Shown: positions 55,381 to 55,904 of the stretch, one piece after another | Numbering within the stretch: the stretch's first letter is position 1 | Layout of the letters: the number at the start of each line of letters is the position of its first letter | From: Octopus vulgaris | Lineage: Eukaryota | Direction: 5' to 3' | Length of the DNA: 64,000 nucleotides | Assembly (NCBI GenBank): GCA_951406725.2 | Contig: OX597817.1 | Coordinates: forward strand, 31,744,001-31,808,000 | The notes under the pieces: model-generated | Databases searched by the model: none | Told to the model about the DNA's origin: nothing | The model's input: only the letters and a program-made list of their open reading frames with translations | Translations under genes and position numbers: made by a program

Positions 55381-55585
55381 CATATATATATATAATAATA
55401 AACATTAGGGAATAAATCCAAATTTACAGGGAAAAATAAGATTTAGGATTGAATCCAATTTTATAATAAAATATTATATTATATTAAATTAGAGACAAAA
55501 CCACTATTAAGCAAATCAAACAAAGAAAGACTTAAGCCAATACCTAAAATAATTTATATAAATTAAATTTAATTAAAATAACCAC

Positions 55586-55689
55586 AAAAATATGGAACGC
55601 TTCACGAATTTGCGTGTCATCCTTGCTCAGGGGCCATGCTAATCTTCTCTGAATCGTTCCAATTTTAGTATATGTACTGCCGAAGCAAG
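55586..55689 (-). pseudogene. U6: U6 snRNA retro-pseudogene, nearly full length
   Basis: Minus strand reads cttgcttcggcagtacatatactaaaattggaacgattcagagaagattagcatggcccctgagcaaggatgacacgcaaattcgtgaagcgttccatattttt; ACAGAGA box mutated to TCAGAGA; no upstream promoter. Confidence 0.95.
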
Positions 55690-55725
55690 GAAGACACGCA
55701 AATTCGTGAAGCGTTCCATATTTTT
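55685..55725 (+). pseudogene. U6: Inverted duplicate of the U6 3' part
   Basis: gcaaggaagacacgcaaattcgtgaagcgttccatattttt. Confidence 0.9.
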
Positions 55726-55823
55726 GTGGTTATTTTAATTAAATTTGATTTATATAAATTATTTTATGTATTGGCTTAAGTCTTTCTTTGTTTGATTTGC
55801 ATAATAGTGGTTTTGTCTCTAAT

Positions 55824-55904
<81 letters not shown>

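What the first reader, a model, noticed from the sequence alone, without database searches (positions are those of the whole stretch)
55400..55830. U6 snRNA fused to a (TA)n-targeting retroelement, with a preserved self-primed fold-back
Seen: on the minus strand a nearly full-length U6 (55689-55586, ending in 5 T) is joined directly to the 5' side of family X, which has three other copies here. At the U6 5' end the plus strand (..ccgaagcaag) switches to the opposite sense at a GCAAG microhomology with ccttgc (55621-55626) and recopies 146 bp, giving arms 55481-55626 and 55685-55830. Established: U6/L1 chimeras in vertebrates arise from RtcB ligation of U6 2',3'-cyclic phosphate to 5'-OH RNAs; hammerhead cleavage yields 5'-OH ends; PLE insertions often carry inverted 5' segments. 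Inference: this is a U6 chimera made by a PLE-type RT in an invertebrate, possibly by ligation to a ribozyme-cleaved RNA, and it records hairpin-primed second-strand synthesis. I am not aware of U6-PLE chimeras being described, but cannot search.
Basis: partly seen in the sequence, partly recalled or inferred. Interest (0 to 1): 0.9.

Follow-up and report, generated by a model that had tools for sequence, protein, structure and literature searches.

The report
U6 joined at ribozyme cut sites
A copy of the U6 splicing RNA is joined to a Penelope-like jumping gene exactly where the element's hammerhead ribozyme is predicted to cut, as in 12 of 13 such fusions found in this genome, which likely records the ribozyme cutting in living germ cells and U6 being ligated onto the cut end before insertion.

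Summary
Family X is the pseudo-LTR plus tail of a Penelope-like element (PLE) with an 838-aa RT/GIY-YIG frame and Hydra-clade motifs. In ordinary X copies the sequence before the U6 junction is a type I hammerhead, and U6 (ending in 5 T) replaces it exactly at the predicted cut. I found 13 U6 fusions to PLE-type families; 12, in six families, join at the predicted cut, against 8 of 77 non-U6 copies starting there. This fills a stated gap: no in vivo evidence of PLE hammerhead cleavage was given in the papers I read. RtcB ligation is inferred; a template jump from the cut end is the main rival. The inverted arm is ordinary for this family (25 of 30 copies). Hairpin self-priming is not favoured: in 3 of 9 palindromic fusions the tail-less arm holds more U6, which fits priming from both target ends. 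Cleavage was not tested; Rfam finds no hammerhead; public contigs showed no junction. Not found in 9 paper searches or earlier scan notes (nearest: a shark Penelope switch at a hammerhead site).

The parts
55586..55689 (-). Near full-length U6 retrocopy (nt 4-107), ending in exactly 5 T
   Evidence: Rfam RF00026 102.5 bits; alignment to a gene-like copy
55585..55586 (-). U6|PLE junction, at the predicted hammerhead cut of family X (after GUA); no shared or extra letters
   Evidence: Upstream sequence of 30 X loci; descriptor; pattern count
55471..55585 (-). Long arm, X positions 1-115: pseudo-LTR part 3' of the hammerhead cut
55385..55470 (-). PLE tail (X 116-201), present on the long arm only; in full-length copies it continues into the ORF start
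55685..55689 (.). GCAAG microhomology at the switch between the arms
   Evidence: sequence
55685..55725 (+). Short arm, U6 nt 67-107 with 5 T
55726..55840 (+). Short arm, X 1-115 with the same junction; last 10 nt merge with (TA)n
55188..55384 (.). (TA)n target, left side; no target-site duplication can be read
   Evidence: sequence
55831..55901 (.). (TA)n target, right side
   Evidence: sequence
39938..40450 (.). Older X-related pair on opposite strands
42698..42895 (+). Older X-related copy, 83% identical
48108..48240 (-). Older truncated X-related copy, 83% identical

Best explanation
This is a U6/Penelope-like retrocopy whose junction lies on the element's predicted hammerhead cut; the ribozyme likely cut the element's RNA, mature U6 was likely ligated to the freed 5'-OH end, and the element's reverse transcriptase likely copied that RNA from both ends of a nicked (TA)n target. 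Shown: X is the pseudo-LTR and tail of a PLE; the junction position; its repetition across families; the fixed ends of the two arms. Inferred: (1) cleavage in vivo, about 0.88; (2) RtcB-type ligation of U6 2',3'-cyclic phosphate rather than a template jump, about 0.65-0.7; (3) two cDNAs, one primed at the tail end (X201) and one at the pseudo-LTR end (X115), joined at their 3' ends by the GCAAG microhomology, about 0.7-0.75.
For: X links to an 838-aa ORF between two X-like repeats. Hammerhead core with both-side stem changes among subfamilies at 42 of 61 X-lineage loci; 3 descriptor hits in the window, 0 in 5 shuffles. 12 of 13 U6 fusions to PLE-type families join at the predicted cut, against 8 of 77 non-U6 copies; Fisher p 5e-9 by locus, 5e-5 with one per family. 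Exactly 5 T in 7 of 7 PLE fusions against 28 of 91 other U6 ends in the unselected set, p 5e-4; the major U6 form ends in 5 U with a cyclic phosphate (PMC6789731). All 9 palindromic fusions carry U6 at the same junction in both arms (one arm differs by a base there in L190, L240, L242). Short arms end at X111-117 in 24 of 25. Tail-primed arms of only 30-95 nt sit beside much longer X115 arms in L066, L071, L084. A purified PLE protein extends both target strands from two internal sites that bound the tail (PMC11167929).
Against: No cleavage or ligation was tested. Rfam found no hammerhead in 5 loci at E up to 10; 5 motifs fold no better than shuffles. The X subfamily of this locus has an A-C mismatch at the base of stem II. 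Family Z fails my descriptor (0 of 13). One fusion (L245, family V) joins about 43 nt downstream of its predicted cut. For Z, W, W' and T the junction can slide up to 2-3 nt on shared T. An ORF link is shown only for X. L220 and L221 probably share one source, so events are fewer than loci. Six of the 13 came from searches that required a palindrome or 5 T. Most non-U6 copies keep the hammerhead (69 of 77). For this locus alone a fold-back gives the same sequence.
Confidence: 0.55

Rival explanations
1. The hammerhead cuts, but no ligation occurs: the reverse transcriptase runs off the cut 5' end and jumps onto the 3' end of U6.
For: Predicts the same junction position. About 44 of 95 U6 ends in this genome precede SINE 5' ends (rough classes), which suggests jumping onto U6 is common here. 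Template switching is the older model for U6/LINE chimeras (PMC4476161, passages).
Against: Both arms carry the junction in 9 of 9 palindromic cases, so with two primers two jumps would be needed. PLE junctions have 5 T and no extra letters, while SINE-type junctions vary in T number and spacer.
Confidence: 0.22
2. One reading: one cDNA primed at the tail folds back at GCAAG and primes its own second strand, which stops where X115 pairs with (TA)n.
For: Fits this locus base for base and 6 of 9 palindromic U6 fusions; both arms of L223 share a private U6 change.
Against: Cannot make L224, L221, L240, 8 of 23 non-U6 X palindromes or L066, L071, L084 without a later deletion.
Confidence: 0.14
3. 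No cleavage: the reverse transcriptase stalls at the folded motif and switches to U6, or the RNA breaks there passively.
For: PLE minimal hammerheads cleave weakly in vitro (PMC4209133); no RNA-seq ends at the cut were found for the anole element (PMC11167929).
Against: A stall is expected where the enzyme first meets stem I, 4-7 nt 3' of the junction, not at the scissile bond (inference); six families with different sequences hit the bond.
Confidence: 0.06
4. Assembly or amplification chimera, or a true U6 gene with X as its flank.
For: The locus lies between long (TA)n runs; no long reads were seen.
Against: Arms diverged independently; nine such palindromes on seven contigs; no upstream region, unlike gene-like L003 and L012; X is a repeat with 1263 first-look candidates.
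Confidence: 0.03

Closest known systems
U6/LINE-1 chimeric pseudogenes formed by RtcB ligation (Moldovan et al. 2019, PMC6789731; abstract, outline and passages seen)
   Same: U6 3' end with about 5 T joined without extra letters to a retroelement RNA, then retrotransposed.
   Different: Partner is a PLE, not L1; the junction is fixed at a predicted ribozyme cut rather than variable; the insertion is palindromic in (TA)n with no poly(A) or readable duplication.
U6/L2, U6/RTE and U6/SINE chimeras of platypus and Anolis (Doucet et al. 2015, PMC4476161; passages seen)
   Same: U6 fused to non-L1 retroelements.
   Different: That paper has 0 occurrences of 'Penelope' or 'ribozyme' and covers vertebrates; its twin-priming cases place the snRNA opposite to L1, not in both arms.
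Hydra clade of C-terminal-EN Penelope-like elements (Craig et al. 2021, PMC8557442; section 11 and passages seen)
   Same: DKT, CxCX5C linker, CxxC and CxH near the C-terminus, no CxxC before YIG, hammerhead, (TA)n target, inverted 5' copy with one-sided tail.
   Different: Unit about 6 kb with a 1.1-kb intron (Hydra mostly under 3 kb); tail about 86 nt (30-40 in the paper); KWK for RWK; no tree built.
PLE hammerheads (Cervera and de la Pena 2014, PMC4209133, parts 1-2 of 4 read) and PAc internal initiation (Frangieh et al. 2024, PMC11167929, parts 1-2 of 4 read)
   Same: Type I motifs with palindromic helix III, U3-A8 core variant, intron ending near helix I, two initiation sites bounding the tail.
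   Different: Those papers report no in vivo evidence of cleavage; here genomic junctions mark the predicted site.
Retrozyme RNA circularisation by RtcB (PMC7229834; passages seen)
   Same: RtcB joins hammerhead-made ends in vitro.
   Different: There the ends are of one RNA; here a host snRNA would be joined in trans.

Membership tests
Penelope-like element (EN+) | Single ORF with RT and C-terminal GIY-YIG endonuclease | tested here: met
   838-aa frame with YRDD and YIG; Pfam GIY-YIG 23.2 bits, cut-off 22.6, on a fragment; whole protein had no relevant Pfam hit
Penelope-like element (EN+) | Pseudo-LTRs flanking the ORF; X is that repeat | tested here: met
   L114, L107, L108 (X-like, 85-89%) and L105 (92%)
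Penelope-like element (EN+) | Inverted 5' copy and one-sided tail | tested here: met
   25 of 30 X loci, short arm ending at 111-117 in 24
Penelope-like element (EN+) | Intron present in some copies and spliced out in others | tested here: met
   GT..AG intron in L077, L083; spliced form in most short copies
Penelope-like element (EN+) | ORF link for families Y, Z, W, W', T, V | tested here: inconclusive
   only nested neighbours hit within 1.5 kb; assigned by anatomy
Hydra clade | DKT, CxCX5C, CxxC/CxH, no CCHH, (TA)n target | tested here: met
   against PMC8557442 section 11
Hydra clade | RWK motif; length under about 3 kb | tested here: inconclusive
   RIKWK in P0001, RWK in a relative; unit about 6 kb
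Hydra clade | Groups with Hydra elements in an RT tree | not tested
   no reference PLE proteins held
Type I hammerhead ribozyme | Conserved core, three helices, NUH site | tested here: met
   own descriptor: X 42 of 61, Y 9 of 14, W 4 of 11, W' 5 of 11 loci; 0 in 5 shuffles
Type I hammerhead ribozyme | Same for family Z | tested here: not met
   0 of 13; A3-U8 pair and an extra U in the GAAA box
Type I hammerhead ribozyme | Match to an Rfam hammerhead model | tested here: not met
   none in 5 loci at E up to 10
Type I hammerhead ribozyme | Self-cleavage at the site | not testable with these tools
   needs an assay
U6/retroelement chimeric retrocopy | U6 3' end with 4-8 T joined to a 5'-truncated element, no U6 promoter | tested here: met
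U6/retroelement chimeric retrocopy | Target-site duplication | tested here: inconclusive
   (TA)n on both sides
U6/retroelement chimeric retrocopy | Chimeric RNA exists before insertion (RtcB) | tested here: inconclusive
   only assembled contigs available; no junction seen

The most novel reading that the evidence does not exclude
U6 acts as a natural tag for 5'-OH ends in the germ line, so U6-PLE fusions are a fossil map of ribozyme cleavage in vivo: they show that PLE hammerheads, including U3-A8 and atypical A3-U8 cores, cut at single-nucleotide precision, and the doubled junction shows that PLEs insert by priming one ligated RNA from both target ends.
Probability: 0.5. Interest if true: 0.82.

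Novelty: new variant of a known kind. Interest (0 to 1): 0.72.

Why it matters
Whether PLE hammerheads cut in vivo is open in the papers read: activity in vitro is low, function is called unclear, and RNA-seq showed no ends at the site. Junctions that land on the scissile bond in six families give a sequence-only readout that can be run on any genome with PLEs, with hammerhead-less Naiads as a control. It extends U6 chimeras to a further class of retroelement and offers a test of how the inverted, tailed PLE insertion is made.

Tried and rejected
Rfam: no hammerhead hit in the window or in 5 loci. Folding of 5 motifs: z from -1.0 to +0.7, uninformative. Pfam on the whole ORF: no RT or GIY-YIG hit. 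Public runs: no RNA holder listed on record; 4 of the 24 runs were laid, all contigs, on a hammerhead-X copy without U6; no listed loose end at the cut carried U6, 106 loose ends were not shown and human-like records are filtered, so this says nothing either way. ORF links for Y, Z, W, W', T, V were sought and not found. Flanks L163, L204, L218, L246, L247 matched nothing held and are left out of the 13. Rejected: true U6 gene, APE-LINE tail, assembly chimera. Paper searches: U6 snRNA + Penelope-like + hammerhead 0; hammerhead + self-cleavage + RtcB + U6 snRNA 0; U6 snRNA + Penelope + retrotranspos + chimer 1 review (listing only). Subscription papers, Repbase notes and all supplements were not seen and could hold a prior mention. 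Other eukaryote genomes could not be searched.

Full report
Observation. Rfam places U6 at 55586-55692 on the minus strand (102.5 bits). U6 nt 4-107 ends in 5 T and is joined to family X at 55585. The arms match at 142 of 146 positions; the GCAAG switch is as described. The window is G000:C4:31744001-31808000 of a 2.8-Gb assembly; its repeat landscape recalls an octopus, which is recalled and untested. Of the four arm differences, two are private to each arm, as expected for a real palindrome that has aged.

What X is. X has 1263 first-look candidates, 40 scored, 30 fetched. Walking upstream gave a 30-nt first exon, a GT..AG intron of about 1.1 kb and, in one copy, a GIY-YIG fragment (Pfam 23.2 bits). 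That fragment has 12,983 first-look candidates, 150 scored, several in frames of 820-860 aa. In L114 an X-like repeat precedes an 838-aa frame and another follows it; L105, 92% identical to X, has the same layout with a broken frame. The protein has YRDD, DKT, CxCX5C, YIG, CxxC and CxH, with no CxxC before YIG, matching the description of the Hydra clade (PMC8557442, section 11). No tree was built. X is thus the pseudo-LTR and tail of a PLE that inserts into (TA)n.

The junction. In ordinary copies the 50 nt before the junction read as a type I hammerhead: stem I, CUGAnGA, stem II, GAAA, a palindromic helix III and GUA, followed by GUGGU, the first bases after U6. My descriptor hit this site in 42 of 61 X-lineage loci, with both-side changes in stems II and III among subfamilies; it hit 3 places in the window and none in 5 shuffles. 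Rfam found no hammerhead and folding was uninformative. The exact U6|X junction occurs at 2 loci, each in both arms.

Is it general? An exact U6 3' 19-mer has 233 matches, of which 100 were listed, making 98 loci on C1-C8, all examined. A palindrome pattern gave 5 loci and a 5T-plus-C/G pattern 106 rows with duplicates, 100 listed. Together they gave 13 fusions to PLE-type families: X (window, L224), Y (L220, L221, L240, L208), Z (L223), W (L241, L242), W' (L243, L244), T (L190), V (L245). Parent copies show that 12 join at the predicted cut. For X and Y there is no shared letter; for Z, W, W' and T up to 2-3 T are shared. Y, W, W' and T have the U3-A8 core known from PLEs (PMC4209133); Z is atypical and fails the descriptor. 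L245 joins about 43 nt downstream of its motif. Of 77 non-U6 copies, 8 begin within 4 nt of the cut; Fisher p is 5e-9 by locus and 5e-5 with one per family. The comparison set was fetched with queries starting at the cut, which under-samples copies truncated further 3' and so should make the test conservative. L220 and L221 share an extra 22-nt U6 piece with the same 1-nt deletion and probably have one source. Five unassigned flanks were left out. An ORF link is shown only for X. U6 ends with mismatches and most of the 133 unlisted matches were not surveyed.

Ligation or jump. Either predicts a junction at a cut 5' end. In the unselected set all 7 PLE fusions have exactly 5 T, against 28 of 91 other U6 ends (p 5e-4); the SINE-type fusions, about 65 of 95 by rough classes, vary in T number and spacer. 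Mature U6 ends in 5 U with a cyclic phosphate and RtcB joins it to 5'-OH RNA (PMC6789731); RtcB also joins hammerhead-made ends (PMC7229834). All 9 palindromic fusions have U6 in both arms. I favour ligation, but it is inferred. Public contigs gave no information.

The inverted arm. 25 of 30 X loci have one, ending at X111-117 in 24, while the other arm carries the tail; inverted 5' copies with a one-sided tail are typical of PLEs (PMC8557442). Among 23 non-U6 palindromes the tail-less arm reaches further 5' in 8, the tailed arm in 12, equal in 3. Among 9 U6 palindromes the tail-less arm has more U6 in 3. In L066, L071 and L084 a tailed arm of 30-95 nt faces an X115 arm of 400 nt or more. A fold-back of the tail-primed strand cannot give these without later deletion. 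Priming from both target ends, at X201 and X115, with the two cDNA ends joined by short microhomology, gives all of them and agrees with a PLE protein that extends both strands from two sites bounding the tail (PMC11167929). At this locus alone the two models give the same sequence.

Comparison and novelty. It works like a U6/L1 chimera and meets the sequence features of that kind, but the partner is a PLE and the junction is fixed. The U6 pseudogene survey does not mention Penelope or ribozymes. Nine paper searches found no description; subscription papers and supplements were not seen. Earlier scan notes held no match by words, place or sequence for this combination; two related notes appeared. 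The 2014 paper speaks of an absence of in vivo evidence, the 2021 paper calls hammerhead function in these PLEs unclear, and the 2024 paper found no RNA-seq ends at the cut.

Verdict. Real, correctly seen, and stronger than one locus suggested: a new variant of a known kind whose value is as likely fossil evidence of PLE hammerhead cleavage in vivo. Interest 0.72.

Noticed in passing
window 54080-54305 (+), 15930-16152 (-), 59421-59483 (-), 59728 (-), 16898 (+): Copies of families Z and Y and two further hammerhead-descriptor hits (one of family V type) lie in the window.
   Followed up: partly
window 8236-9075 and 10036-10323: RT and endonuclease fragments of another PLE, 49% and 34% identical to P0001.
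   Followed up: no
G000, 98 U6 3' ends on C1-C8: About 44 U6 copies precede the 5' end of tRNA-type SINEs and about 21 precede a short tail that often starts at the same GGCGGTG motif, with variable spacers. A fixed start there is unexplained.
   Followed up: no
L220 (C3:84.71 Mb) and L221 (C3:85.07 Mb): Two U6-Y palindromes 355 kb apart share a 22-nt extra U6 piece with the same deletion, but on opposite arms: possibly two insertions from one RNA.
   Followed up: partly
L223 (C6:133.04 Mb): Arms identical over 162 of 162 nt and sharing a private U6 change, while the unpaired U6 part has 3 changes: possible arm homogenisation.
   Followed up: no
L037 (C25:22.216 Mb): An X copy about 175 nt from the L224 fusion begins exactly at the cut after ATATTTTT, which may be a U6 remnant.
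   Followed up: no
L105 7700-7800, L114 1120-1230: The tail holds 10 nt complementary to the ORF start about 90 nt downstream, so the outer priming site would lie within a hairpin.
   Followed up: no
L140-L146 (C1:139.42 Mb), L003, L012: Gene-like U6 copies: a tandem array of 7 with a second 5' stem type, and two single copies with an octamer-like upstream motif (recalled label).
   Followed up: no
L187 (C4:80.60 Mb); L162, L153: U6 followed by a sequence recalling 5S rRNA (recalled, untested); U6-U6 tandem fusions.
   Followed up: no
Family Z, L227-L239: Hammerhead-like motif with an A3-U8 pair and an extra U in the GAAA box; the U6 junction still falls on its predicted cut.
   Followed up: partly
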